Shown here: positions 2,534 to 12,461 of the stretch, piece by piece
Numbering within the stretch: position 1 is the first letter of the stretch
Layout: each line of letters starts with the position of its first letter
Source: a virus
Taxonomy: Duplodnaviria; Heunggongvirae; Uroviricota; Caudoviricetes
IMG/VR virus record: IMGVR_UViG_3300014970_000006
Coordinates: 1-22,590 of that record
Reading direction: 5' to 3' (one strand)
Length of the DNA: 22,590 nucleotides
Position numbers and translations under genes: made by a program
Notes under the pieces: model-generated
Told to the model about the DNA's origin: nothing
Databases searched by the model: none
Seen by the model: the letters and a program-made list of their open reading frames with translations, nothing else

Positions 2534-3024
2534 TCATGAGTCTTTTGAATGACGTTCAGAAATTCATTGAAGCCCATCCGGGCTGTTCTTCCGGAGACAT
2601 TGCGGATGCTTTTGCAGGTTACTCACGGCTGCGCGTTCTGCAGTCAGCAAGCAAGTTACGTCAGAGTGGGCGTGTGGCTCACCGTTGTGAAGGAGATACA
2701 CGCAGACATTTCCCGCGCCTGACTGAGAGAGCGCAGGAGCCGGAACCACAACCAGTTCGTGAAACCAGACCTGTGCGCAATTTCTATGTCGGCACTAACG
2801 ATCCCCGGGTGATTTTGTGCCTGACCCGCCAGGCTGAAGAACTGGAGTCCAGGGGCTTATACCGTCGTGCTGCAACGGTGTGGATGGCGGCATTCCGTGA
2901 AAGCCACTCCCAGCCAGAACGAAACAATTTTCTGGCGCGTCGTGAGCAGTGCTTACAGAAAAGCAGCAAGCGCGCTGCATCGGGTGAAGAGTGGTATCTG
3001 TCAGGGAATTACGTGGGGGCGTAA
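2530..3024 (+). CDS. PerC-family transcriptional activator-like protein
   Basis: C-terminal region LESRGLYRRAATVWMAAFRESHSQPERNNFLARREQCL resembles the PerC motif as recalled; ATGA overlap with upstream gene. Confidence 0.45.
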   Translation: MIMSLLNDVQKFIEAHPGCSSGDIADAFAGYSRLRVLQSASKLRQSGRVAHRCEGDTRRHFPRLTERAQEPEPQPVRETRPVRNFYVGTNDPRVILCLTRQAEELESRGLYRRAATVWMAAFRESHSQPERNNFLARREQCLQKSSKRAASGEEWYLSGNYVGA

Positions 3025-3350
3025 TGACGACGTTAACTCAATGCCAGCATCAGGTGCTGGATATGCTGATTTCTTACCAGAAAGAGCGTGGCTTTCCGCC
3101 AACCAATCAGGAGGTGGCAACCATGCTGGGATACCGTTCAGTGAATGCAGCGGTAGAGCATCTTCGTGCACTGGAGAAAAAAGGCGTCATCACGATAAAG
3201 CGTGGCGTGGCCCGGGGGATCACGCTTCATACCACAGTGAAGGACGACGACAGCGAGGCAGCCGGGATTATCCGCGCACTGCTTGCCGGTGAGGAAAACG
3301 CCAGACTGCGTGCAGCCCACTGGTTACATGAGAGGGGCCTGAAAGTATGA
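3024..3350 (+). CDS. LexA N-terminal DNA-binding domain protein, lacking the S24 peptidase domain
   Basis: MTTLTQCQHQVLDMLISYQKERGFPPTNQEVATMLGYRSVNAAVEHLRALEKKGVITI matches the LexA winged-helix domain pattern; only 109 aa; TAATG overlap with upstream gene. Confidence 0.65.
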   Translation: MTTLTQCQHQVLDMLISYQKERGFPPTNQEVATMLGYRSVNAAVEHLRALEKKGVITIKRGVARGITLHTTVKDDDSEAAGIIRALLAGEENARLRAAHWLHERGLKV

Positions 3351-3736
3351 AGCTGATCCTGCCTTTCCCGCCCAGCGTGAACACGTACTGGCGACACCCC
3401 AACAAAGGGGCGTTTGCTGGTAAGAGTCTGATAAGCGCAGCGGGGCGCAAATTCCAGAGCGCGGCATGCGCAGCAATAGTTGAGCAGTTACGTCGTCTGC
3501 CGAAACCAACGTCGGCACCTGCTTCAGTGGAGATCGTGTTGTTTCCTCCGGATAACCGGATCCGCGATCTGGACAACTATAACAAGGCGCTGTTTGACGC
3601 CCTGACCCACGCGGGTGTGTGGGAAGACGACAGACAGGTGAAAAGAATGCTGGTGGAGTGGGGACCGGTTATCCCGGAAGGGAAGGTCGAGATCACTATC
3701 AGTAAGTATGAGAAACCGGCGGGTGCAGCCGCCTGA
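3347..3736 (+). CDS. rusA: RusA-family Holliday junction resolvase
   Basis: 129 aa; LPFPPSVNTYWRH ... RDLDNYNKALFDALTHAGVWEDDRQV matches RusA signature regions; ATGA overlap with upstream gene. Confidence 0.88.
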   Translation: MKLILPFPPSVNTYWRHPNKGAFAGKSLISAAGRKFQSAACAAIVEQLRRLPKPTSAPASVEIVLFPPDNRIRDLDNYNKALFDALTHAGVWEDDRQVKRMLVEWGPVIPEGKVEITISKYEKPAGAAA

Positions 3737-3755
3737 TTAAGAGGAGAAACGAAGT

Positions 3756-4553
3756 ATGAATAATCTGATGGTTATTGATGGTATTGAAGTTCGTCGTGAT
3801 GCTTATGGGCGTTACAGCCTGAACGATCTGCACAGGGCTGCCGGTTCTCTGGATAAGCATAAGCCTGCATTCTGGCTCCGCAATGAGCAAGCTGAACGTT
3901 TAATAAGCGAGTTGCAGATTTGCAACTCGGTCAATATAGAGCCAGTTAACGTTATTCGTGGCGGAAATAACCAGGGGACGTATGTCTGCAAAGAACTGGT
4001 GTATGCCTATGCAATGTGGATCAGCCCGTCATTCCATCTGAAGGTGATCCGTACTTTCGATATGGTAACCAGCACACCGGAAAAATTATCCGGGCAGGCT
4101 GCTGACAAGATGCAGGCTGGCGTGATCCTGCTGGACTTTATGCGCCGGGAATTAAACCTGTCTAACTCATCAGTGCTTGGTGCCTGTCAGAAACTCCAGG
4201 AGGCTGTTGGCTTACCGAATCTGGCACCGCGCTATGCCATTGATGCTCCTGCTGATGCACACGATGGCTCAAGTCGCCCGACACTGTCACTGAGTGCACT
4301 GCTGAAACAGTATGGTATCCGCCTGACGGCTAATCAGGCATATCACCAGATGGTGAAACTGGGGATCGTCGAGCAGCGCGAACGATACAGCCGTACCGCG
4401 ATTAACAACATCAAAAAATTCTGGTCGCTGACAGCGAAAGGTTGCATGTTCGGCAAGAACATCACCAGTCCCGCAAATCCGCGTGAGACGCAGCCGCATT
4501 TCTTCGAATCCCGATTCCCTGAGCTGTTAAAGCTGCTCGATACCGTTCATTGA
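3756..4553 (+). CDS. KilA-N domain protein
   Basis: N-terminal YSLNDLHRAAG...KPAFWLRNEQAERLISEL...GGNNQGTYVCKELVYAYAMWISPSFHLKVIRTF is KilA-N-like; GAGGAG RBS upstream. Confidence 0.8.
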   Translation: MNNLMVIDGIEVRRDAYGRYSLNDLHRAAGSLDKHKPAFWLRNEQAERLISELQICNSVNIEPVNVIRGGNNQGTYVCKELVYAYAMWISPSFHLKVIRTFDMVTSTPEKLSGQAADKMQAGVILLDFMRRELNLSNSSVLGACQKLQEAVGLPNLAPRYAIDAPADAHDGSSRPTLSLSALLKQYGIRLTANQAYHQMVKLGIVEQRERYSRTAINNIKKFWSLTAKGCMFGKNITSPANPRETQPHFFESRFPELLKLLDTVH

Positions 4554-4554
4554 G

Positions 4555-5556
4555 GTGACCGTGAGAGCACTACTGACCCCTGAAATTGCCCCGTGTATGG
4601 GGATCGTATTGTTCAGGCCAGGTTCAGAGCTGATGCCCCTGTTTATGCAGGGGCGTGTCCTGCTGGAGCCTGAGCCGGAACGTTATTCATCTTTCGCCAG
4701 TGGTGCCGTTCCGGCGGCATCACAACCGCTGGCGGATGATCCTGCCGTTCGGGCCGTGTTCCGCAATGAGGCAGTGATCCGTCGTGCTGGTGGCGTGGAA
4801 TGTCTTGAAAGCTGGTTACTTCGTGAAAAAGGCTGCCAGTGGCCTCATTCCGACTGGCACAGCGAGAACATGACCACAATGCGGCACGCGCCGGGCGCAA
4901 TCCGTCTGTGCTGGCACTGCGATAACCAGTTGCGCGATCAGTTCACGGAACGGCTGGAATCAATGGCAACGGATAACTGTGCCCGCTGGGTGTTATCTGT
5001 TGTGCGCCGTGATCTCGGTTTTGATGATAGTCACGTTGTGACAATGCCGGAACTGTGCTGGTGGCTGGTTCGTAATGACCTGGCGGATGCCTTACCGGAA
5101 AGTGCAGCCCGTAAGGCACTGAGATTACCGAAGCCTGTTGTGCCGTCTGTTACCCGGGAAAGTGACCTTGTGCCTTCGGTTCCTGCCACCAGCATCATCC
5201 AGGATAAAGCGAAAAAGGTGCTGGCGCTGAAAGTGGATCCGGAGTCGCCGGAGTCTTTTATGTTACGCCCAAAACGTCGCCGCTGGGTTAATGAAAAGTA
5301 CACGCGCTGGGTTAAGACACAGCCGTGTGCATGTTGTGGAAAGCCTGCTGATGATCCCCACCACCTGACAGGTCACGGTCAGGGTGGAATGGGAACAAAA
5401 GCGCATGACCTCTTTGTGTTGCCTTTGTGCAGAAAGCATCACGACGAGCTGCATGCGGATACCGTGGCATTTGAAGAGATGTATGGCTCCCAGCTGGAGC
5501 TGATATTTCGTTTTATCGATCGTGCGCTGGCGATCGGCGTAATTGCGACAGCTTAA
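4555..5556 (+). CDS. DUF968-like (YdfU-like) prophage protein with C-terminal Cys/His cluster
   Basis: C-terminal CACCGKPADDPHHL...LCRKHHDELH suggests a zinc-binding, HNH-like fold; sits directly upstream of the Q-like gene, as ydfU does relative to the Q-like gene in the Qin prophage; start codon uncertain. Confidence 0.55.
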   Translation: MTVRALLTPEIAPCMGIVLFRPGSELMPLFMQGRVLLEPEPERYSSFASGAVPAASQPLADDPAVRAVFRNEAVIRRAGGVECLESWLLREKGCQWPHSDWHSENMTTMRHAPGAIRLCWHCDNQLRDQFTERLESMATDNCARWVLSVVRRDLGFDDSHVVTMPELCWWLVRNDLADALPESAARKALRLPKPVVPSVTRESDLVPSVPATSIIQDKAKKVLALKVDPESPESFMLRPKRRRWVNEKYTRWVKTQPCACCGKPADDPHHLTGHGQGGMGTKAHDLFVLPLCRKHHDELHADTVAFEEMYGSQLELIFRFIDRALAIGVIATA

Positions 5557-6267
5557 GTGTATGGAGCGCTGAGAAGTATGAATCAACAAGACTTGAATTT
5601 TGTCAGAATAGAACTACGTCGTGCGCTGTTTGACTTCTCTGGGGGGACAAAAGGGCAGCTTGAGGCTTTCACTGAACACCCACCAGCAGACAAAAATGCC
5701 ACTCCACGCCGTGGAATTCATCTTGTCGAACTCGAAGGTGATAAGGGACCACGCTTTGTTAACTCGCTTTCCGCGCCATTGTACGTGCAAGAAACACGTA
5801 GCCGCCCCAGGCCAATGCCGCCGATAAAAGATGTAGAATTTGAGTCCGCGCCGTGGCGTAGGGCAGTGTCCGCGCTTAGTGGATACCAGCAGGCTTGGTT
5901 GCGGTACTGTTACGGTTTTGACCTTAACTATACGCACCAGGTGATGATGTGTGAATACGTCTGGAAGGCTTATCAGAAATGCTTGGGTAAAAACTCACTT
6001 CAGGAGCGCGTAGTAAAAAAACTAATAGGCCTAGTATGGCTTGCAGGACAGGAAATTGCTGCAACCCGAAACAATGAAACCTATAAAGACTACGCTGGTG
6101 CGGCGCTGGCCCGTATGGTTAGCGTTGACCGTTCGACATGGTTGCGCGTCTATTCAGGCCACTGGGCTGGGTTAAAGGCCGCTTTTACCCAGCTTGATGA
6201 GTCTGCGCTGGCCATGGCTCTTGAATACTATGAGGATGAAGAAGCTCTCAAAGTGGGAGAAATATGA
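5557..6267 (+). CDS. Putative late-gene antiterminator (Q-like)
   Basis: Called mainly by position: immediately upstream of a promoter plus short-transcript terminator unit and the lysis cassette; no catalytic motif identified. Confidence 0.45.
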   Translation: MYGALRSMNQQDLNFVRIELRRALFDFSGGTKGQLEAFTEHPPADKNATPRRGIHLVELEGDKGPRFVNSLSAPLYVQETRSRPRPMPPIKDVEFESAPWRRAVSALSGYQQAWLRYCYGFDLNYTHQVMMCEYVWKAYQKCLGKNSLQERVVKKLIGLVWLAGQEIAATRNNETYKDYAGAALARMVSVDRSTWLRVYSGHWAGLKAAFTQLDESALAMALEYYEDEEALKVGEI

Positions 6268-6297
6268 CGTAAATTTCACTATCTCCTTCAAACGCGC

Positions 6298-6326
6298 TTG
6301 CAAAATACAACAAAATAAGCCATATT
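6298..6326 (+). promoter_or_regulatory. Candidate late promoter (PR'-like)
   Basis: TTGCAA, 17-nt spacer, CATATT; about 50 nt upstream of a strong intrinsic terminator. Confidence 0.3.
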
Positions 6327-6360
6327 GGAAGCATGTTTGATATGTTGCCAAAGTTTTATA

Positions 6361-6387
6361 AACCCGCCGACGAGCGGGTTTTTTGAT
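6361..6387 (+). terminator. Intrinsic terminator (tR'-like) ending a short leader transcript
   Basis: CCCGCCGACGAGCGGG hairpin followed by TTTTTT. Confidence 0.8.
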
Positions 6388-6460
6388 ATGCGACATAACC
6401 TATAACATTTTTTATAAAATAAAATATAATTGCTTTACCATTATCCTGTGAGTTGAGCAA

Positions 6461-7246
6461 ATGTATATATTTGAATTGACCAAACCTGGCAACTGGCTTG
6501 AAAGTGAAGACAAAGAGTGGTCTTGGAAAATAGAACGGCTTTTGGACCATCTTGAATTTGCATTTTATGAGGCTAATGTTGCATTAAATTTATTTATGCA
6601 GCAGCAAAACAATCAAATAGAACAACAAGGGGTTTCGCAATTGCAATGGGAAAAAGAAATGCAAGAACGAAGAACCATCGAAACACTAGTTCGTGAGGAG
6701 TTAGGTTTATCCCCTTTTGAGAATCCTGAAAACATACAATTTGAGGTGGACGCGAGGTTTAAACGAGAAAAGTGGAGTTCTGGTGAAATTCCACGTAGCC
6801 ACAAACATTGTGTGATTTTTATTTATGCAAAATCTTTTCTTTATTCTCTTGATACTATTGATAAATTTATAAAGGTTATTTCGAATGAACCTTATGCTCC
6901 TGAGTCGATAAAAGCCCTACACGATCAGATAGGTAAAGATTTTCCTGATCTCAGAGGGGTTAGGAATTCAACTCAACACCTCGAAGATAGGGCTCGAGGG
7001 CTTGGCGCAGGGAGAGAACCGAAGCCTTTGAATCTCCAGCCTATAAGTAATACCTTCATAAATGCACCGCAAGGTGCTTTGATATTAAATAATCTGAATG
7101 GCACCAAATTCGGGTCAACTATGTCTGATGGTCACTATGGTGAAGTGGACATTTCACCTGAATCGTTATCAAAAATGCAAAGTATTGTTCAGGGCGTTCT
7201 TGACTCGTTTAAGTGGGTTGGTAATCAGCAACACTTACCAAGTTAA
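6461..7246 (+). CDS. Moron-encoded 261-aa protein with HEPN-type RNxxxH motif; candidate abortive-infection or toxin RNase
   Basis: AT-rich ORF between Q and the lysis genes; TATAAT at 6425-6430 upstream; strong terminator downstream; motif RNSTQH in ...DLRGVRNSTQHLEDR... Confidence 0.65.
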   Translation: MYIFELTKPGNWLESEDKEWSWKIERLLDHLEFAFYEANVALNLFMQQQNNQIEQQGVSQLQWEKEMQERRTIETLVREELGLSPFENPENIQFEVDARFKREKWSSGEIPRSHKHCVIFIYAKSFLYSLDTIDKFIKVISNEPYAPESIKALHDQIGKDFPDLRGVRNSTQHLEDRARGLGAGREPKPLNLQPISNTFINAPQGALILNNLNGTKFGSTMSDGHYGEVDISPESLSKMQSIVQGVLDSFKWVGNQQHLPS

Positions 7247-7267
7247 CTAAACTTAATTATTCATATT

Positions 7268-7294
7268 AAGGCTGCCATATGGCGGCCTTTTTAT
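7268..7294 (+). terminator. Intrinsic terminator after the first moron
   Basis: AAGGCTGCC-ATAT-GGCGGCCTT hairpin followed by TTTTATT. Confidence 0.8.
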
Positions 7295-7339
7295 TCCCTT
7301 CACTTTTGAGAGGATTCACAGCAATTAAGAGGGGGCTAA

Positions 7340-7726
7340 ATGTCCGATCCGATTTCCGGCACAGGGTTAGCTGCTGGAGTCCTGACAGGCGCTAGTGTTT
7401 ATGGACTGCTGACCGGAACTGATTACGGTGTTGTATTTGGCGCATTTGCAGGGGCTGTATTCTACATCGCAACAGCAGCAGATCTGAGTTTATCGCGTCG
7501 ACTGGCATATTTTATCGTGTCGTATATTGCCGGAATCCTTTGCTCTGGGTTGGTTGGCTCCAAGCTGGCAAACTTGACCGGATACAGTGATAAACCTCTG
7601 GATGCTATTGGTGCCGTAATCGTCTCTGCTTTAGCCGTTAAAATCCTGACGTTTCTGAATAACCAGGATATCGGTTCGCTGGTGGCGCTTATAACGCGCC
7701 GGGGAGGTTCAGGTGGAGCTAAATGA
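7340..7726 (+). CDS. Putative holin (multi-transmembrane small membrane protein)
   Basis: 128 aa, Gly/Ala-rich hydrophobic segments, charged C-terminus; first gene of the lysis cassette upstream of the endolysin. Confidence 0.6.
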   Translation: MSDPISGTGLAAGVLTGASVYGLLTGTDYGVVFGAFAGAVFYIATAADLSLSRRLAYFIVSYIAGILCSGLVGSKLANLTGYSDKPLDAIGAVIVSALAVKILTFLNNQDIGSLVALITRRGGSGGAK

Positions 7727-7994
7727 CCCGACAGCAACTATAAATGCGCTGTTATGTGCTTGTGTTGTTATTACTCTGATGTTTTATCGTCGTGGTGATT
7801 CGCGGCATCGTCCTTGGGTTTCACGTTTAGCCTGGCTGATTACTGTTACATACAGTGCTGTTCCGTTGGCCTATCTCTGTGGGATTTATCCCCATTCCTC
7901 ATGGCCCATTATCGTGGCGAATACTATTTTTCTTTCCGTGCTGGTGGCCGTCAGAGGCAACGTTGCACGTCTGGTTGATCATCTGAGGCACTAA
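7713..7994 (+). CDS. Small membrane protein of the lysis cassette (second holin or antiholin-like)
   Basis: 93 aa with two or three hydrophobic helices; overlaps neighbours at both ends. Confidence 0.5.
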   Translation: MELNDPTATINALLCACVVITLMFYRRGDSRHRPWVSRLAWLITVTYSAVPLAYLCGIYPHSSWPIIVANTIFLSVLVAVRGNVARLVDHLRH

Positions 7995-8608
7995 TGAACC
8001 AACAATTATTTCAAAAGGCGGCTGGTATTAGCGCCGGGCTGGCTGCGCGCTGGTTTCCGCACATTGATGCGGCGATGAAGGAATTCGGCATTACAGCACC
8101 AGCGGATCAGGCAATGTTTATCGCTCAGGTAGGCCATGAGTCGATGGGGTTTAGCGCCGTAGTTGAAAATTTTAACTACACACCATCTGCGCTGGTGGCG
8201 TCGTTCGGAAAGAGGATTACACAGCAGCAGGCTGATGCCCTTGGCAGAACATCCGGACATGCAGCTCGTCAGGATGCTATTGCCAATCTTGTGTATAGCA
8301 ACCGACTGGGTAACAAAGCACCAGGTGATGGCTGGAAATATCGTGGTAGAGGATTAATTCAAATCACTGGCCTCCATAATTATCGCATCTGTGGCGCGGC
8401 GCTGAAGTTAGATCTGGTGACTTCACCTGAACAACTGGAACAGGAGCTACAGGCCGCGCGCTCAGCTGCATGGTTCTACACCTCTAAAGGTTGCATGGTC
8501 TACGGTACCGATATTAATCGTGTTACGCGCATCATTAACGGCGGTCTGAACGGTATTGAGGATCGTAAGGTTCGATACAACAAGGCGCGGGCGGCGCTGC
8601 TGGTATGA
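7994..8608 (+). CDS. Endolysin, glycoside hydrolase family 19 (chitinase-like lysozyme)
   Basis: 204 aa; FIAQVGHESMGF ... WKYRGRGLIQITGLHNY ... INGGLNGIEDR are typical GH19 endolysin segments. Confidence 0.85.
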   Translation: MNQQLFQKAAGISAGLAARWFPHIDAAMKEFGITAPADQAMFIAQVGHESMGFSAVVENFNYTPSALVASFGKRITQQQADALGRTSGHAARQDAIANLVYSNRLGNKAPGDGWKYRGRGLIQITGLHNYRICGAALKLDLVTSPEQLEQELQAARSAAWFYTSKGCMVYGTDINRVTRIINGGLNGIEDRKVRYNKARAALLV

Positions 8609-8997
8609 AGATGAGTTATTGGGCGCTCATTTTAACGTTTATTGCTTGTATTGCTGGTGGTCTTGTTTGGTCAGCGAATCACTATCATGGAAAGTTTCTG
8701 GAGGAGCAGAAGCGTGCTGACGCTGCGGAACAGCGAGCTGATTCTACTGAGGCTATCACCGCGAATGTTCTGCGTACTATGGCAATAACGAACATCATTC
8801 AGGAGGCGAATCAATATGCAAAACAGCAGATCGCACTGGAGTCACAGAGAACCCAGGAAGATATCAAAGTGGCTGTTGCGGATGATGATTGTGCTTCACG
8901 TCCTGTGCCTGCTGCCGCTGCTGACCGGTTGCGGAAGTACGCGAACAGTTTACGTGAGCATTCCGAAGACTCCACTACCAGTCAGCTTGACTTCTGA
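8605..8997 (+). CDS. Rz-like i-spanin
   Basis: N-terminal transmembrane helix, charged coiled-coil periplasmic domain, directly after the endolysin. Confidence 0.7.
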   Translation: MKMSYWALILTFIACIAGGLVWSANHYHGKFLEEQKRADAAEQRADSTEAITANVLRTMAITNIIQEANQYAKQQIALESQRTQEDIKVAVADDDCASRPVPAAAADRLRKYANSLREHSEDSTTSQLDF

Positions 8998-9130
8998 TAC
9001 ACCTGTACCGTTTATACCCAACCCACTGACGTATGGTGCAAGTCTTGATTTGAATGTAAGTTTGTTATCCGCGTTGGCTCAATGTAATAGGGATAAGTCT
9101 GATATCAGAATCATTGATAATCAAAATTGA
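8882..9130 (+). CDS. Rz1-like o-spanin lipoprotein, overlapping the 3' end of Rz in the +1 frame
   Basis: Signal peptide with lipobox LLTGC, Pro-rich mature region; starts inside Rz and extends past its stop. Confidence 0.65.
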   Translation: MMIVLHVLCLLPLLTGCGSTRTVYVSIPKTPLPVSLTSDTPVPFIPNPLTYGASLDLNVSLLSALAQCNRDKSDIRIIDNQN

Positions 9131-9333
9131 TGTATATTTTTATCGTCATGTAGATAACGAACAAGGTATTCCTCTGATACGTTTCGTTGAATACAGGTCA
9201 TGGGTAGGCATTGCAATATCGCTTCGAAATTATCTGTGATAATGCTCTTAATTTTGAATGTATGTATTTGGGAAAAGAGATAAAGTAATAGTCTAATTAA
9301 TGGAGATATCCACAAAACACAAGAGGGACTATT

Positions 9334-9840
9334 ATGCGACCAGATCAATTTTTCTATCCAGATACTTTTACCTTTAATTCATCCACCTATTATGGTCAAC
9401 GTGACTCATCTAAAGGTCGATTGTATATTCTTATTGAAAGTGACTTATGTCCATTTAATATCGGCGATATCATTGTGCAAAAAATGGTCGACAGGGAAAG
9501 ACTATTTGAAGTGCTTGATTACGAGGTACAAATTAGTCTCGAGGCTGGTTGCCCTGGCTACTCACATTTGGCGGTATTGATAGTGAAGGCATTGGATGTA
9601 AAAGAGAAGCCGAAGCAGATTACGACCCATTTGACGTTTAACGGTGCTATTAATGCTGGTGGTGATTTTCAAGCCGGTAATGACAATTCGATCACAAAGA
9701 ATATAACCATTCAACAACTACATGATGCTATAGAGCATTGCAATGATCCAGAGGTTAAAAGCCTTTGGCAAAAGCTATTGGAAAATCCGACGTTTGCTTC
9801 AATTGCTTCAATATTGGCAAAAAGTGCTTTAGGACAGTAA
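9334..9840 (+). CDS. Moron-encoded 168-aa protein of unknown function
   Basis: AT-rich ORF between the lysis cassette and HNH/terminase; AT-rich 200-bp upstream region; terminator immediately downstream. Confidence 0.6.
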   Translation: MRPDQFFYPDTFTFNSSTYYGQRDSSKGRLYILIESDLCPFNIGDIIVQKMVDRERLFEVLDYEVQISLEAGCPGYSHLAVLIVKALDVKEKPKQITTHLTFNGAINAGGDFQAGNDNSITKNITIQQLHDAIEHCNDPEVKSLWQKLLENPTFASIASILAKSALGQ

Positions 9841-9848
9841 TTCATCAA

Positions 9849-9871
9849 GCCCCATTCAATATGGGGTTTTT
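9849..9871 (+). terminator. Intrinsic terminator after the second moron
   Basis: CCCCAT-TCAAT-ATGGGG hairpin followed by TTTTT. Confidence 0.75.
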
Positions 9872-9897
9872 ATGCTTATTACAAAGAGTTTTCTTCA

Positions 9898-10248
9898 ATG
9901 CCACCACGAACTCCAAAAGCCTGCCGTGTTCGCGGGTGCCGCCGTACCACCACTGACCCGTCAGGTTATTGCGAAAGCCACAAAAGCGAAGGCTGGAAGC
10001 AATACAAGCCAGGACAATCCCGTCATCAGCGCGGCTACGGTTCGAAGTGGGACGTTATCCGCGCGCGTGTGCTGAAACGTGACAAAGGTTTATGTCAGTT
10101 ATGTCTGCGCGCTGGTGTGGTGCGTGAGGCGAAAACTGTTGACCACATCATCCCTAAAGCGCATGGCGGCACTGATGCCGACTGTAATCTGCAGAGTCTG
10201 TGCTGGCCGTGTCATAAGGCGAAGACGGCCCGTGAACGGATTAAGTAA
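9898..10248 (+). CDS. HNH endonuclease (terminase-associated, HK97-like arrangement)
   Basis: CRVRGC...C..H, DHIIPKAHGG, CNLQSLCWPCH motifs; sits immediately upstream of the small terminase. Confidence 0.9.
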   Translation: MPPRTPKACRVRGCRRTTTDPSGYCESHKSEGWKQYKPGQSRHQRGYGSKWDVIRARVLKRDKGLCQLCLRAGVVREAKTVDHIIPKAHGGTDADCNLQSLCWPCHKAKTARERIK

Positions 10249-10373
10249 GAACCAGTTCCCACTGCCAGAGGGGAGGGGCGGGTCAAATCCCTGTGACCTG
10301 ACGTCTTCCGGACTGCCCGCCCCATCGTTTTTTTATACCCGCGAAAAATGAAATTTAACCAGGAGTGCCGCAT

Positions 10374-10868
10374 ATGGCTGGAACGGCGGGGCGTTCCGGG
10401 CGTCGCCCCAAGCCAACGGCGCGCAAGGCGCTGGCCGGAAACCCCGGCAAGCGAGCCCTGAATAAAGATGAACCTGTTTTTACGCCCATCAAAGGTGTTG
10501 AGCCACCGGAGTGGTTCGCAGAAGAAAATCTCCCTCTCGCCACGATCATGTGGCAACTGACAACCAAAGAACTCTGCGGTCAGGGCCTGTTGTGCGTGAC
10601 TGACCTCGCGGTGCTTGAGCGGTGGTGCGTGGCCTATGAGTTCTGGCGACGTGCCGTGAAAAATATTGCCATACAGGGCAACACCATCACCGGTGCAATG
10701 GGCGGCAGGGTCAAAAATCCGGAGCTGACCGCCAAAAAAGAACAGGAGTCCGAGATGAGCAGCACGGGGGCAATGCTCGGACTCGACCCCAGCAGCCGCC
10801 AGCGTCTGATTGGCCTGGCGGGGCAGAAGAAAGCCACTAACCCGTTTCTGAAAATCATCGAGTCATGA
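10374..10868 (+). CDS. Terminase small subunit (P27/HK97-like)
   Basis: Basic N-terminus ([15 protein letters not shown]), size and position before the large terminase; AGGAG RBS 8 nt upstream of ATG at 10374. Confidence 0.8.
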
Positions 10869-11671
10869 GCCGGAAATCTTACCCCAACGTAAATGCTGCC
10901 AATCAGTATGCCCGTGATGTTGTGCGCGGAAAGATTGTGGCCTGCCAGTTTGTGATTCAGGCCTGCCAGCGCCATCTTGATGACCTGATGGCGGAAAAAA
11001 GTAAGTCGTTTCGTTACCGCTTCGACAAGGACCTGGCTGAACGGGCTGCCAAATTTATTCAGCTGTTGCCGCACACCAAGGGGGAGTGGGCATTCAAGAG
11101 GATGCCCATCACGCTGGAGCCGTGGCAGCTCTTTGTGATCTGCTGTGCGTTTGGCTGGGTCAATAAAGGCTCCCGGCTGCGCCGCTTCCGGGAGGTGTAT
11201 ACCGAAATCCCCCGTAAGAACGGCAAATCGGCAATCTCTGCCGGTGTTGCCCTGTATTGTTTTGCCTGTGATAACGAGTTTGGCGCGGAAGTGTATTCCG
11301 GTGCCACGACAGAGAAACAGGCGTGGGAAGTCTTTCGCCCGGCGCGACTGATGTGTAAACGCACACCCATGCTGACGGAAGCGTTCGGGATTGAGGTTAA
11401 CGCCTCAAACATGAACCGTCCGGAGGATGGCGCGCGGTTTGAACCGCTGATCGGTAACCCCGGTGATGGTTCATCACCCCACTGTGCCGTGGTGGATGAA
11501 TATCACGAGCACGCCACCGATGCGCTTTATACCACGATGCTTACCGGGATGGGCGCGCGACGTCAGCCACTGATGTGGGCCATCACCACCGCCGGGTACA
11601 ACATTGAGGGGCCGTGCTACGACAAGCGGCGGGAAGTTATCGAGATGCTCAACGGTTCGGTATGTTTCTGA
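10865..11671 (+). pseudogene. Terminase large subunit, N-terminal ATPase domain only (3'-truncated by deletion)
   Basis: Walker A-like [10 protein letters not shown] and Walker B-like [10 protein letters not shown] present; ORF stops after 268 aa with no nuclease domain; a Mu N-like reading frame follows. Confidence 0.8.
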
Positions 11672-11675
11672 TGCG

Positions 11676-12461
11676 ATGAAAGTGGTGGATTCTGCCGTAT
11701 CGGATGCCGCCAGGCTGTTGCAGGGGGATATCTCGGTACTTCTGCCGCCGCCATCGTCAGGCAAAAATTTCGTTGAGCAGGTGCAGAAAATGTGGCGTAC
11801 CGGGAAACGCCTTTATGGTAACGCCAGCGACCTGGTCACCATGATCAAAACGCTTTCCGGTGTCAGCCTCGGCAGCGATCTGCAACCGCGCGGCGTCTGG
11901 AAAACGGACAGTAAAACCACCGCCACGGCGACGCAGCAGCGTAACGTGGTTGCCAGCACCCTTCGTACGACCGCAATCAGCGAAGCGGCGTATGCCGTCA
12001 CCCGATTGCCTGCGCCAACAACTTCCGCGGTGATGCAGAATTCCGCAGTGGGGCAGGCAACAACACCCGCGCAGAGCACTGGCTGGCCTTCCATCACGCA
12101 TCCGGCACTGAACAATGCACCGGCGGTGAAAAACACGGTTGACCTGCCGACGTGGGAAGAACTGACTGACATTCGCGACACACTGAATACGGCAATTGAT
12201 AAGGAGTTGTCCCGTACAACCAGCGATGCGCTGTTTCTGGCGCTGCGCCGGGTGAAAGCAGATCTGAATGCGGATATCAACACGCGCCTTGAACAGTCTG
12301 CACGGATCATTCAGCGCACACCGGATGAGGTTTTACCCGCGCTGGTGCTGGCGGCGACCTGGTTTGATAACGCGGCGCGTGACGCGGACATTATCCGGCG
12401 TAATGCCATTACGCATCCCGGCTTTGTGCCGGTGATCCCTCTGAAGGTGCCAGTGCAATGA
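11676..12461 (+). pseudogene. Mu gpN-like (DNA circulation protein) C-terminal fragment
   Basis: Directly precedes a Mu-like baseplate block in Mu gene order; too short for a full-length N; starts at the deletion junction. Confidence 0.55.

What the first reader, a model, noticed from the sequence alone, without database searches (positions are those of the whole stretch)
9131..9875. Second moron between Rz/Rz1 and the HNH-terminase block: 168-aa unknown protein
An AT-rich, promoter-like 200-bp region, a single ORF and a clean intrinsic terminator are inserted exactly at the lysis/packaging boundary, another recognised moron slot (bor occupies it in lambda). The protein has no signal peptide or transmembrane helix that I can see and no motif I recognise. 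Composition contrasts with the flanking genes. Candidate lysogenic-conversion or anti-phage gene.
Basis: partly seen in the sequence, partly recalled or inferred. Interest (0 to 1): 0.55.

Follow-up and report, generated by a model that had tools for sequence, protein, structure and literature searches.

The report
Prophage moron with RHIM-like protein
A small self-contained gene cassette dropped between the lysis and DNA-packaging genes of a defective E. coli prophage encodes a rare, uncharacterised two-part protein; its most conserved stretch resembles the short motifs that switch on cell-death proteins in animals, fungi and bacteria, which makes it a plausible but untested anti-phage gene.

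Summary
A 168-aa ORF (9334-9840, +) has a Shine-Dalgarno site, a low-GC leader (GC 0.33) and an intrinsic terminator (9847-9869). It fills exactly the interval between the Rz1 stop (9130) and the HNH start (9898).

It behaves as a moron. The cassette occurs in 29 of 5426 complete E. coli genomes, while the adjoining HNH/TerS block occurs in about 1100. Nine sampled relatives carry six other cargos (iss, DUF2441, various hypotheticals), one gene-less 292-bp spacer and one empty site. Homologues (48-72% identity) sit as isolated, low-GC, terminator-ended genes in five other phage backbones.

The protein belongs to PHROG 5789 (function unknown) and has no Pfam, NCBIfam, PADLOC or PDB hit. It is modular:
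- a confident N-terminal beta-barrel that other family members replace with a zinc ribbon or other N-terminal regions;
- a linker that AlphaFold cannot place, holding the only invariant family residues (phi-Q-phi-G-x-x-N);
- two amphipathic helices and a small-residue hydrophobic C-terminal tail.

The linker motif is RHIM-like only below threshold. My best guess (about 0.35) is a single-gene phage-exclusion or abortive-infection effector that oligomerises through the motif and attacks the membrane. Function is untested.

The parts
9131..9333 (+). Cargo leader: AT-rich non-coding region (GC 0.33) with a candidate extended -10 (TGTGATAAT, 9235-9243) and a Shine-Dalgarno GAGG at 9323-9326
   Evidence: No consensus sigma-70 promoter on the + strand. 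Similarity to related prophages is lost just after the Rz1 stop at 9130.
9334..9840 (+). 168-aa ORF, member of PHROG 5789 (unknown function), RefSeq WP_001247186.1-like
   Evidence: (E 1.5e-77). Under purifying selection: pN 0.26-0.27 against pS 0.83-0.87 versus 62%-identical homologues.
9334..9603 (+). N-terminal domain (aa 1-90): six-strand small beta-barrel, pLDDT about 80-93. This is the variable module of the family. The window copy carries a private P33L change.
   Evidence: models; generic barrel matches only; replaced by other domains in relatives; 54% against 68% pairwise identity; P33L.
9622..9705 (+). Linker (aa 97-124) that AlphaFold cannot place (pLDDT below 50). It contains the conserved motif G-D-F-Q-A-G-N-D-N (core aa 109-118 = 9658-9687). 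Q113, G115 and N118 are the family's invariant or near-invariant residues. RHIM-like below threshold.
   Evidence: conservation; low pLDDT; Pfam RHIM hits in relatives, 14-18.5 bits against a cutoff of 20; family HMM against RIPK3/RIPK1.
9706..9837 (+). C-terminal module (aa 125-168): amphipathic helices 126-134 and 139-150, then a small-residue hydrophobic helix 152-166 ending the protein
   Evidence: helices; hydrophobicity and hydrophobic moment; the tail is the hydrophobic maximum in most relatives; the module also exists as a stand-alone 81-aa ORF.
9847..9874 (+). Intrinsic terminator (stem-loop 9847-9869 plus T-run) belonging to the cargo, 24 nt before the HNH ATG at 9898
   Evidence: Lies within the part of the interval not alignable with related prophages. 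Homologues in three other backbones (L007, L015, L017) also end in a hairpin plus T-run.
8816..9130 (+). Left boundary gene: Rz1-like LysC lipoprotein embedded in and extending past Rz (8605-8997)
   Evidence: PF23793 LysC, E 3.7e-15.
9898..10248 (+). Right boundary gene: HNH endonuclease that opens the packaging block (TerS 10365-10868, truncated TerL 10865-11671)
   Evidence: Alignment identity with relatives begins exactly at this ATG.

Best explanation
Shown: 9131-9897 is a moron, a self-contained accessory cassette of leader, one gene and a terminator. It occupies the exchangeable slot between the spanin genes and the HNH/terminase block of an e14/SfV-like lambdoid prophage with a Mu-like tail, and this prophage is itself defective. 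Shown: its product is a real, conserved, phage-borne, modular protein. It has a variable N-terminal globular domain. Next comes a roughly 30-residue segment that is unstructured in the monomer but carries the family's invariant phi-Q-phi-G-x-x-N motif. The protein ends in two amphipathic helices and a small-residue hydrophobic C-terminal helix.

Inferred mechanism, my commitment: the protein is a single-gene phage-exclusion (abortive-infection type) effector expressed from the prophage. The N-terminal barrel is the sensing or targeting module and binds some product of an infecting phage. Engagement frees the RHIM-like motif to drive homo-oligomerisation by beta-sheet stacking. That clusters the C-terminal amphipathic and glycine-zipper-like helices so that they insert into and permeabilise the inner membrane, which stops the infection. 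This resembles HET-S, Bell or Bab effectors in logic, but with sensor and effector in one chain and the membrane helix at the C-terminus. None of the functional steps has been tested. The confidence given (0.35) is for the inferred mechanism; the moron status on its own I put at about 0.9.
For: Moron status:
- The cassette is in 29 of 5426 genomes, against about 1100 that carry the flanking block.
- Nine sampled relatives show six other cargos, one empty site and one gene-less site.
- Similarity breaks at the Rz1 stop and the HNH ATG.
- The cassette has its own terminator and low GC.
- Homologues are isolated genes, often on the opposite strand, in other backbones: Serratia between an SLT-domain gene and a primase; a podovirus-like contig between a 490-aa gene adjoining the small-terminase gene (probably large terminase) and the portal gene; a 106-kb Klebsiella phage; and after the lysis genes of three other lambdoid types.
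- ORF GC stays at 0.39-0.43 in all these contexts.
- All 17 IMG/VR loci are viral contigs.

Real gene: pN/pS is about 0.3.

Modularity: relatives keep the motif and C-module behind a zinc ribbon (P0045; individual Pfam hits sub-threshold), unrelated N-terminal regions with no Pfam assignment (P0052, P0050, P0055; P0052's only hit is DUF2513 at E 0.21) or N-terminal extensions. One metagenomic locus has two adjacent genes with different N-domains and the same motif and C-module. An 81-aa ORF consists of the module alone, beside ParE, Fic and ArdA genes.

The N-domain evolves faster than the rest: 54% against 68-69% pairwise identity.

Motif:
- The only invariant or near-invariant residues across 60 sequences are Q113, G115, N118, D138, K142 and N151.
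- The motif segment stays at pLDDT below 50 even with a 60-sequence alignment.
- Among 24,736 Pfam models, the one hit by most family members is RHIM PF12721, always on this motif: 4 of 35 members, best E 0.0015, 18.5 bits. Next is the 23-residue HET-S-named model PF17108.
- The family motif HMM scores PDB-verified human RIPK3 and mouse RIPK1 RHIMs at 13.2 and 14.9 bits. It aligns Q-x-G-x-x-N onto VQVG/IQIG...N, and only 2 of 5000 composition-preserving shuffles reach those scores.

Tail: it is the hydrophobic maximum in most members, uncharged and rich in G/A/S.

Precedent: a prophage-borne amyloid-switched membrane effector, Bab/Agp, gives abortive infection in E. coli (10.1101/2024.11.07.622273). 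RHIM, PP and BASS3 motifs share G-phi-Q-phi-G (10.1101/2020.01.06.895854).
Against: - There is no functional data of any kind.
- There is no hit to any PADLOC defence model.
- The window protein itself gives no Pfam RHIM hit even at E 10. Its tetrad is F-Q-A-G, which is not the canonical (I/V)-Q-(I/V/L/C)-G.
- All RHIM hits in relatives are below the gathering score.
- A PDB-wide search with the motif profile finds nothing at E up to 10, and the best PDB hit of the whole C-module is an insignificant CsrA match.
- An 11-residue resemblance can be convergent or accidental.
- In this E. coli/Serratia subfamily the tail is only weakly hydrophobic (mean KD 0.59-0.94) and here contains a Lys, so membrane insertion is doubtful for this copy.
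- Four of the contexts place the gene directly after the lysis cassette (and the window), which also fits a role in the phage's own late functions.
- No convincing promoter was found, so expression in the lysogen is not established.
- The window copy has a private P33L change at a conserved proline.
Confidence: 0.35

Rival explanations
1. Non-lethal superinfection exclusion: the C-terminal helix anchors the protein to the cytoplasmic face of the inner membrane, and the N-terminal barrel blocks DNA entry or an early step of incoming phages. This would work as other moron-encoded membrane proteins do (HK97 gp15-type, from my own knowledge), without oligomerisation-driven killing.
For: Moron anatomy and phage-only distribution. 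A C-terminal hydrophobic tail in the family. A variable N-domain, as expected for a specificity module.
Against: It does not explain why the strongest conservation lies in an unstructured N/Q/G-rich motif rather than in the barrel. The tail is short (about 16 residues) and weakly hydrophobic in this copy. The module exists alone, without any N-domain.
Confidence: 0.15
2. Accessory factor for the phage's own late programme (lysis timing or envelope disruption, or head-neck assembly). It would be transcribed with the late operon by Q-mediated read-through rather than in the lysogen.
Confidence: 0.13
3. Lysogenic-conversion factor aimed at the bacterium's environment (host colonisation, stress or serum resistance) rather than at phages, like bor/iss in the same slot.
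For: iss occupies the same slot in a related prophage. The gene is retained in a defective prophage. Many carriers are human or animal isolates.
Against: The protein has no signal peptide or lipobox and is predicted to be cytoplasmic or membrane-associated (sequence), so it is not surface-exposed like Bor/Iss. Relatives occur in environmental metagenomes and in several genera, in mobile-element contexts with toxin-antitoxin and anti-restriction genes. That pattern points to conflict with mobile elements rather than with an animal host.
Confidence: 0.12
4. Counter-defence decoy: a phage protein whose RHIM-like motif co-assembles with and poisons host amyloid-type immune signalling (Bab/Agp-like or NLR/BASS-like). 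This would be analogous to herpesvirus RHIM proteins that block necroptosis.
For: The sub-threshold RHIM-like motif. The gene is always phage-borne. Viral RHIM decoys are established in animal viruses (PMC7375649, PMC8883498). Amyloid-switched defence exists in E. coli prophage hotspots (10.1101/2024.11.07.622273).
Against: A decoy needs neither a conserved C-terminal hydrophobic helix nor interchangeable N-domains. No partner carrying a matching motif was found in the window. Moron anatomy and survival in a dead prophage suggest benefit to the lysogen.
Confidence: 0.08
5. Chance ORF or decaying pseudogene with no function.
For: The window copy has a private P33L substitution and lies in a deleted prophage.
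Against: Full-length homologues of 165-171 aa at 48-72% identity occur in several genera and phage types. pN is far below pS. There is a strong PHROG profile match and a confident fold for the N-domain.
Confidence: 0.02

Closest known systems
Morons of lambdoid phages (bor of lambda, iss, HK97/HK022 morons)
   Same: A single gene with its own terminator and deviant base composition, inserted between two conserved late-gene blocks. It is present in some and absent from other closely related phages. The slot after Rz/Rz1 is the one that holds iss in a related prophage.
   Different: The cargo is unrelated to Bor/Iss: no lipoprotein signal and no Pfam hit. A promoter of its own is not demonstrated.
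Bab/Agp amyloid-signalling abortive-infection system of E. coli (10.1101/2024.11.07.622273); Bell/BASS and fungal HET-S/HELLP effectors (10.1101/2020.01.06.895854)
   Same: A small prophage-borne protein that combines a short N/Q/G-rich motif, unstructured in the monomer, with a helical region bearing a terminal hydrophobic helix. The motif contains the phi-Q-phi-G core that RHIM, PP and BASS3 share. Relatives score just under the Pfam RHIM threshold.
   Different: The order is inverted: motif first, hydrophobic helix at the C-terminus. An extra variable N-terminal globular domain sits in the same chain. No adjacent partner gene carries the motif. There is no detectable sequence or fold similarity to Bell, HeLo or Bab domains. 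Amyloid formation is untested. The window protein's tetrad is FQAG.
RHIM (PF12721) of RIPK1, RIPK3, ZBP1, TRIF and viral M45/ICP6/ORF20
   Same: The core phi-Q-phi-G followed by N two or three residues later. The family HMM aligns to VQVGDNN of RIPK3 and IQIGNHN of RIPK1 better than to 4998 of 5000 shuffles. Pfam RHIM hits three identified relatives (of the four counted) at 14.1-18.5 bits; for scale, RIPK3 against RIPK1 also gives 18.5 bits.
   Different: All hits are below the gathering score of 20. There is none for the window protein and none in a PDB-wide search. The similarity spans about 11 residues, so common descent cannot be claimed.
PHROG 5789
   Same: Full-length match, E 1.5e-77, profile positions 1-167 of 168.
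   Different: The PHROG carries no functional annotation, so membership names the family but explains nothing.
Phage head-closure/stopper proteins (SPP1 gp16-like; SF1141, PDB 2kz4) and PilZ barrels
   Different: Identity is 6-15%. PilZ and FMN-binding barrels score equally. Foldseek shows no significant hit. BLASTP against the phage family's own head-closure protein gives no meaningful alignment. The PilZ c-di-GMP motifs RxxxR and (D/N)xSxxG are absent from the sequence.

Membership tests
Moron (phage accessory cassette) | Present in some, absent from other closely related phages at the same locus | tested here: met
   29 of 5426 genomes carry it, against about 1100 with the flanking HNH-TerS block. 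Six other cargos, one empty site and one gene-less site in nine sampled relatives.
Moron (phage accessory cassette) | Own transcription terminator downstream | tested here: met
   Hairpin 9847-9869 plus T-run, -13.3 kcal/mol. It lies in the region not shared with relatives.
Moron (phage accessory cassette) | Own promoter upstream | tested here: inconclusive
   No consensus sigma-70 site on the + strand in 9131-9333. Only an extended -10 candidate, TGTGATAAT, at 9235-9243.
Moron (phage accessory cassette) | Base composition differs from neighbouring phage genes | tested here: met
   GC 0.33 (leader) and 0.39 (ORF) against 0.51 and 0.57 in the flanks. ORF GC is 0.39-0.43 in all six contexts examined; it is below both flanks in the window, L013, L015, L016 and L017, and in L007 the contrast is smaller (0.40 vs 0.45/0.48) and the 300-bp leader is not AT-rich (0.51).
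Moron (phage accessory cassette) | Expressed from the repressed prophage | not testable with these tools
   Needs transcriptomics of a lysogen.
PHROG 5789 | Significant full-length match to the family profile | tested here: met
   E 1.5e-77, 260 bits, residues 1-168 on profile positions 1-167 of 168.
RHIM (Pfam PF12721) | Score at or above the gathering threshold (20 bits) | tested here: not met
   Window protein: no hit at E up to 10. Relatives P0033, P0050 and P0049 score 18.5, 17.3 and 14.1 bits.
RHIM / PP / BASS3 amyloid motifs | Central G-phi-Q-phi-G signature (10.1101/2020.01.06.895854) | tested here: inconclusive
   The window has G-G-D-F-Q-A-G-N-D-N, and the family consensus is G-x-x-V-Q-V-G-N-x-N. 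The phi-Q-phi-G core is present, but the upstream G is offset by one or two residues. The family HMM against RIPK3/RIPK1 has an empirical p of about 4e-4, yet nothing is found PDB-wide.
Amyloid signalling pairs (Bell/NLR, Bab/Agp) | The same motif at the end of two proteins encoded by adjacent genes | tested here: not met
   There is only one occurrence of the motif in the six-frame translation of the window. In metagenomic locus L009 two adjacent genes do share it, but they share the entire C-module and so are paralogues.
Amyloid signalling pairs (Bell/NLR, Bab/Agp) | The motif forms amyloid fibrils or transmissible foci | not testable with these tools
   The only indirect observation is that the segment stays at pLDDT below 50 in both AlphaFold models.
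Known anti-phage defence systems (PADLOC-DB v2) | Match to a model of a known or candidate defence protein | tested here: not met
   No hit at E up to 1.
Bor/Iss lipoproteins | Lipoprotein signal peptide with lipobox, and sequence similarity to Bor/Iss | tested here: not met
   The N-terminus MRPDQFFYPDTF has no hydrophobic signal and no lipobox Cys. No Pfam or NCBIfam hit.
PilZ domain | RxxxR and (D/N)xSxxG c-di-GMP-binding motifs | tested here: not met
Phage head-closure / stopper proteins | Sequence-family membership and position within the head-tail joining module | tested here: not met

The most novel reading that the evidence does not exclude
PHROG 5789 and its wider family (37 cluster representatives at 50% identity) would be a new class of phage-borne, single-chain, amyloid-switched effector. 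In this reading a RHIM-like phi-Q-phi-G-N-x-N motif links interchangeable sensor domains to a C-terminal glycine-zipper membrane helix. It would be an 'all-in-one', topologically inverted counterpart of HET-S, Bell or Bab, carried by temperate phages of enterobacteria as a moron. Alternatively, it could be the first bacteriophage counterpart of the herpesvirus RHIM decoys.
Probability: 0.18. Interest if true: 0.85.

Novelty: new member of a known kind. Interest (0 to 1): 0.52.

Why it matters
The Rz1-to-HNH junction of this very common E. coli prophage family (about one genome in five carries the packaging block) is shown here to be an exchangeable cargo slot with an identifiable empty site. 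That makes it a convenient place to mine and compare accessory genes. The cargo in this window belongs to a rare family with no characterised member. Its architecture is a swappable N-domain, an invariant motif that is unstructured in the monomer and RHIM-like below threshold, and a terminal hydrophobic helix. This gives a concrete, cheap hypothesis to test: point mutants at Q113, G115 and N118, tail deletion, phage challenge and GFP-foci assays. If the hypothesis holds, amyloid-type switching in bacterial immunity would extend from the two-gene Bab/Agp and Bell/NLR systems to a one-gene, phage-encoded format. It would also strengthen the case that RHIM-like cores recur across animals, fungi, bacteria and their viruses.

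Tried and rejected
- Pfam, NCBIfam and PADLOC scans of the window protein gave no hits.
- phmmer against PDB sequences gave only noise, best E 0.11.
- The head-closure mimic idea was checked by BLASTP against the prophage family's own head-closure protein, with no meaningful similarity.
- hmmsearch of the C-module profile against PDB gave CsrA as best hit at E 0.2, treated as chance. The motif-only profile found nothing at E up to 10.
- A search for a partner carrying the motif in all six frames of the window found none.
- I could not obtain the Bab sequence to compare BASS11 directly. The residues quoted in the preprint do not fit this motif in register.
- The profile search with the C-module in the 5.8-billion-protein set returned only short proteins, so it did not reveal further domain fusions.
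- The search for related loci with the broad alignment failed for lack of conserved words. With the close alignment it found nothing in the GTDB species representatives and 17 viral contigs.
- tblastn of the C-module against phages and plasmids was largely masked by the low-complexity filter, giving 2 and 4 records.
- Rfam and repeat searches around the cassette found nothing relevant.
- A literature search for the accession, the PHROG number and the carrying phage found no functional study.
Full report
**1. The observation**

The window holds a 168-aa ORF at 9334-9840 on the + strand. A GAGG lies 7 nt upstream of its ATG. A terminator-like hairpin with a T-run follows at 9847-9869 (9 pairs, 4 G-C), folding at -13.3 kcal/mol. 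GC drops to 0.32-0.41 over 9100-9850, compared with about 0.5 upstream and 0.53-0.60 downstream.

- two holins, a GH19 endolysin, and a DUF2570-type Rz (8605-8997) with an embedded LysC/Rz1 (8816-9130);
- then HNH (9898-10248), a P27-type small terminase and the large terminase.

The promoter is the one element I could not confirm. The consensus scan finds no + strand site in the 203-bp leader and no excess over shuffles. The best candidate is an extended -10, TGTGATAAT at 9235-9243, without a usable -35. No Rfam family and no flanking repeats are present.

**2. It is a moron**

The 800-bp cassette occurs at 98.8-99.6% identity in 29 of 5426 complete E. coli genomes. It also occurs in one deposited phage, vB_EcoM-689R6. 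The HNH-TerS block immediately to its right occurs in about 1100 genomes.

I sampled nine prophages that share that block. The interval between the spanin genes and HNH contains:
- a 145-aa hypothetical;
- a pair of minus-strand genes of 189 and 111 aa (seen twice);
- a DUF2441 protein;
- iss;
- a 229-aa hypothetical;
- a 74-aa gene plus a minus-strand 146-aa gene;
- a gene-less 292-bp spacer;
- in strain BY68, nothing at all, with Rz1 ending 26 bp before HNH.

Alignments show that similarity to the relatives begins exactly at the HNH ATG and is lost just after the Rz1 stop. The whole of 9131-9897, including leader and terminator, is therefore the exchanged unit.

More distant homologues (48-72% identity) are again isolated genes, in six contexts:
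- after the lysis cassettes of three other lambdoid backbones that use different holin, endolysin and terminase types;
- on the opposite strand between an SLT-domain gene and a primase in Serratia;
- between a 490-aa gene adjoining the small-terminase gene (probably large terminase) and the portal gene of a podovirus-like contig;
- on the opposite strand to its neighbours in a 106-kb Klebsiella phage.

Across the window and the five metagenome/assembly loci analysed (L007, L013, L015-L017; the Klebsiella phage locus was not included) the ORF keeps GC 0.39-0.43, below both flanks in five of the six; the contrast is weak in the Serratia locus L007. In four of the six loci examined, the window included, it ends in a hairpin with a T-run. 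All 17 IMG/VR matches are viral contigs, and no GTDB species-representative genome carries the gene.

That condition is not met.

**3. The gene is real**

Against 62%-identical homologues, non-synonymous differences (pN 0.26-0.27) are far fewer than synonymous ones, which are saturated (pS 0.83-0.87). Among near-identical copies, synonymous changes are generally at least as numerous as non-synonymous ones.

**4. What the protein is**

It matches PHROG 5789, of unknown function, over its full length (E 1.5e-77). It matches nothing in Pfam, NCBIfam, PADLOC or PDB sequences. The family is small: 22 clusters at 90% identity among 5.8 billion proteins, and 37 representatives at 50% identity among 1.84 billion.

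Two AlphaFold models, built with 20-sequence and 60-sequence alignments, agree:
- residues 1-90 form a confident six-strand beta-barrel (pLDDT about 80-93);
- residues 93-119 cannot be placed (pLDDT below 50);
- residues 126-166 form three helices (pLDDT about 65-77).

**5. The informative feature is the family's modularity**

Across 35-60 aligned relatives the N-terminal part is replaceable. P0045 has a zinc ribbon (sub-threshold Pfam hits), P0052, P0050 and P0055 have unrelated N-terminal regions with no Pfam assignment, and P0027, P0030, P0040 and P0057 have N-terminal extensions.

The C-terminal 70 residues are kept, with the consensus N-I-G-S-x-x-G-x-x-V-Q-V-G-N-x-N-x-Q-x-x-N-I-T ... D-P-E-A-K-S-L-L ... 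N-x-T-V-A-x-I-x-G-A-G-x-x-x-L-L. G115 is the only invariant residue; Q113, N118, D138, K142 and N151 are conserved in at least 90% of sequences. Three of these six lie in the segment AlphaFold cannot fold.

Other points:
- Within the close subfamily the barrel evolves faster than the rest: 54% against 68-69% pairwise identity.
- One metagenomic locus carries two adjacent genes with different N-domains and the same motif and C-module.
- At least one 81-aa ORF consists of the module alone, next to ParE, Fic and ArdA genes.
- The extreme C-terminus is the hydrophobic maximum in most members (mean Kyte-Doolittle 1.5-2.0 over 15 residues), uncharged and rich in Gly/Ala/Ser.
- In the E. coli/Serratia subfamily, which includes the window protein, the tail is weaker (0.59-0.94) and here contains a Lys.

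**6. RHIM-likeness**

On reading the consensus I suspected a resemblance to the RIP homotypic interaction motif, and I tested it three ways.

- Test 1. I scanned all 35 representatives against Pfam at a permissive threshold. RHIM (PF12721) was the family hit by most members: 4 members, best E 0.0015, 18.5 bits against a gathering score of 20. Next was the 23-residue HET-S-named model PF17108 (E 0.009). The three RHIM hits and the one PF17108 hit that I located residue by residue all fall on the conserved motif.
- Test 2. I confirmed from PDB entries that my recalled RIPK3 RHIM sequence is exact, and I obtained a mouse RIPK1 RHIM. RIPK3 against RIPK1 scores only 18.5 bits, so genuine RHIMs are no more similar to each other than the Pfam model is to these phage proteins. 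A profile of the phage-family motif scores RIPK3 at 13.2 bits and RIPK1 at 14.9 bits. It aligns Q-x-G-x-x-N onto VQVGDNN and IQIGNHN, and only 2 of 5000 composition-preserving shuffles do as well.
- Test 3. The same profile searched against all PDB sequences returns nothing at E up to 10. The whole-module profile returns only an insignificant CsrA match.

The window protein itself gives no RHIM hit, and its tetrad is F-Q-A-G. My conclusion is that the family motif is RHIM-like in pattern at a level that is suggestive but below every formal threshold. Membership of RHIM is not established, least of all for this copy.

**7. Mechanism**

RHIM, PP and BASS3 motifs share a G-phi-Q-phi-G core and act as amyloid switches for membrane-targeting cell-death domains (10.1101/2020.01.06.895854). 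An E. coli prophage-hotspot system, Bab/Agp, uses such a switch for abortive infection (10.1101/2024.11.07.622273).

The protein here combines three things:
- an interchangeable globular domain;
- an invariant motif that is unstructured in the monomer;
- amphipathic helices ending in a small-residue hydrophobic helix.

The most economical reading is a one-chain sensor-switch-effector. The barrel binds a phage product, the motif drives homo-oligomerisation, and the clustered C-terminal helices damage the inner membrane.

This is inference. It differs from the known systems in topology, because the motif precedes the helical part and the hydrophobic helix is C-terminal. It also has no partner gene, since only one motif occurs in the window, and it has an extra domain. 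I put it at about 0.35.

The rivals are:
- non-lethal exclusion by a membrane-anchored protein (0.15);
- a role in the phage's own late programme, suggested by the recurrent post-lysis position (0.13);
- lysogenic conversion unrelated to phages (0.12);
- a decoy of host amyloid signalling (0.08);
- a non-functional ORF (0.02).

**8. Context**

The window's prophage is defective. Compared with the intact relative in strain elppa4, it has lost about 11.1 kb, from the middle of the large terminase gene to the DNA-circularisation gene. The cassette has nevertheless been kept, although this copy carries a private P33L change at a proline that all 12 other copies compared retain.

**9. Verdict**

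The finding is a genuine, well-delimited moron in a demonstrably exchangeable slot. Its cargo is a rare, uncharacterised phage protein family with an unusual modular build and a sub-threshold RHIM-like motif. It is a new member of a known kind (phage morons) and offers a testable, potentially more novel, reading. Function is unproven.

Noticed in passing
window 10865-12461 (junction near 11647-11662): The prophage is defective. Window 3018-11662 is collinear with the intact prophage of E. coli elppa4 (L002 8401-17058), then jumps to L002 28136. About 11.1 kb is missing: the C-terminal half of TerL, the portal, protease, capsid, connector, sheath and tube genes, the tape measure, and the start of the DNA-circularisation gene.
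   Followed up: yes
window 9430-9432 (codon 33 of the 168-aa ORF): The window copy has Leu33, where all 12 other E. coli/IMG-VR copies compared have Pro. Pro is also the family consensus (I-P) at this position in the barrel. This may be a slightly damaged allele.
   Followed up: partly
window 6461-7246 (+): Another isolated ORF (261 aa, PHROG 5322, unknown function; no Pfam, NCBIfam or PADLOC hit) lies between the Q antiterminator gene and the holin genes. Related prophages hold other genes in that slot: a KAP NTPase, an ATP-binding protein and a methyltransferase remnant.
   Followed up: partly
L023 (E. coli BY68) 2474-2501; L022 (RM9245) 2208-2501: These are empty or gene-less versions of the Rz1-to-HNH slot. 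BY68 has only 26 bp between Rz1 and HNH, which defines the unoccupied site.
   Followed up: yes
L009 4517-5998 (JGI metagenome contig Ga0633706_0000222): A family member that appears frameshifted (extra N-terminal domain plus barrel, then the module) is followed 6 bp later by a 214-aa gene. That gene has an unrelated helical N-domain and the same motif and C-terminal module, so the two are tandem paralogues sharing the motif. HicAB genes are nearby.
   Followed up: partly
L025 3145-3858 (ENA metagenome scaffold): A stand-alone 81-aa version of the motif and C-terminal module is followed 25 bp later by a 147-aa helical protein. The context contains ParE, HTH, Fic and ArdA genes, suggesting a mobile-element conflict island.
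   Followed up: no
window 7340-7994: Two different holin-family genes lie in tandem (Phage_holin_8, 128 aa, then Phage_holin_3_7, 93 aa) ahead of a GH19 endolysin. Most sampled relatives that share the packaging block instead use a lambda-family holin with a GH24 lysozyme, so the lysis cassette is itself mosaic.
   Followed up: no
L004 and L019, 1345-2350 in L019 coordinates: The same two-gene minus-strand cargo (189 aa plus 111 aa hypotheticals) occupies the slot in two unrelated strains, from the Czech Republic and Japan. It is a second recurrent cassette worth examining.
   Followed up: no
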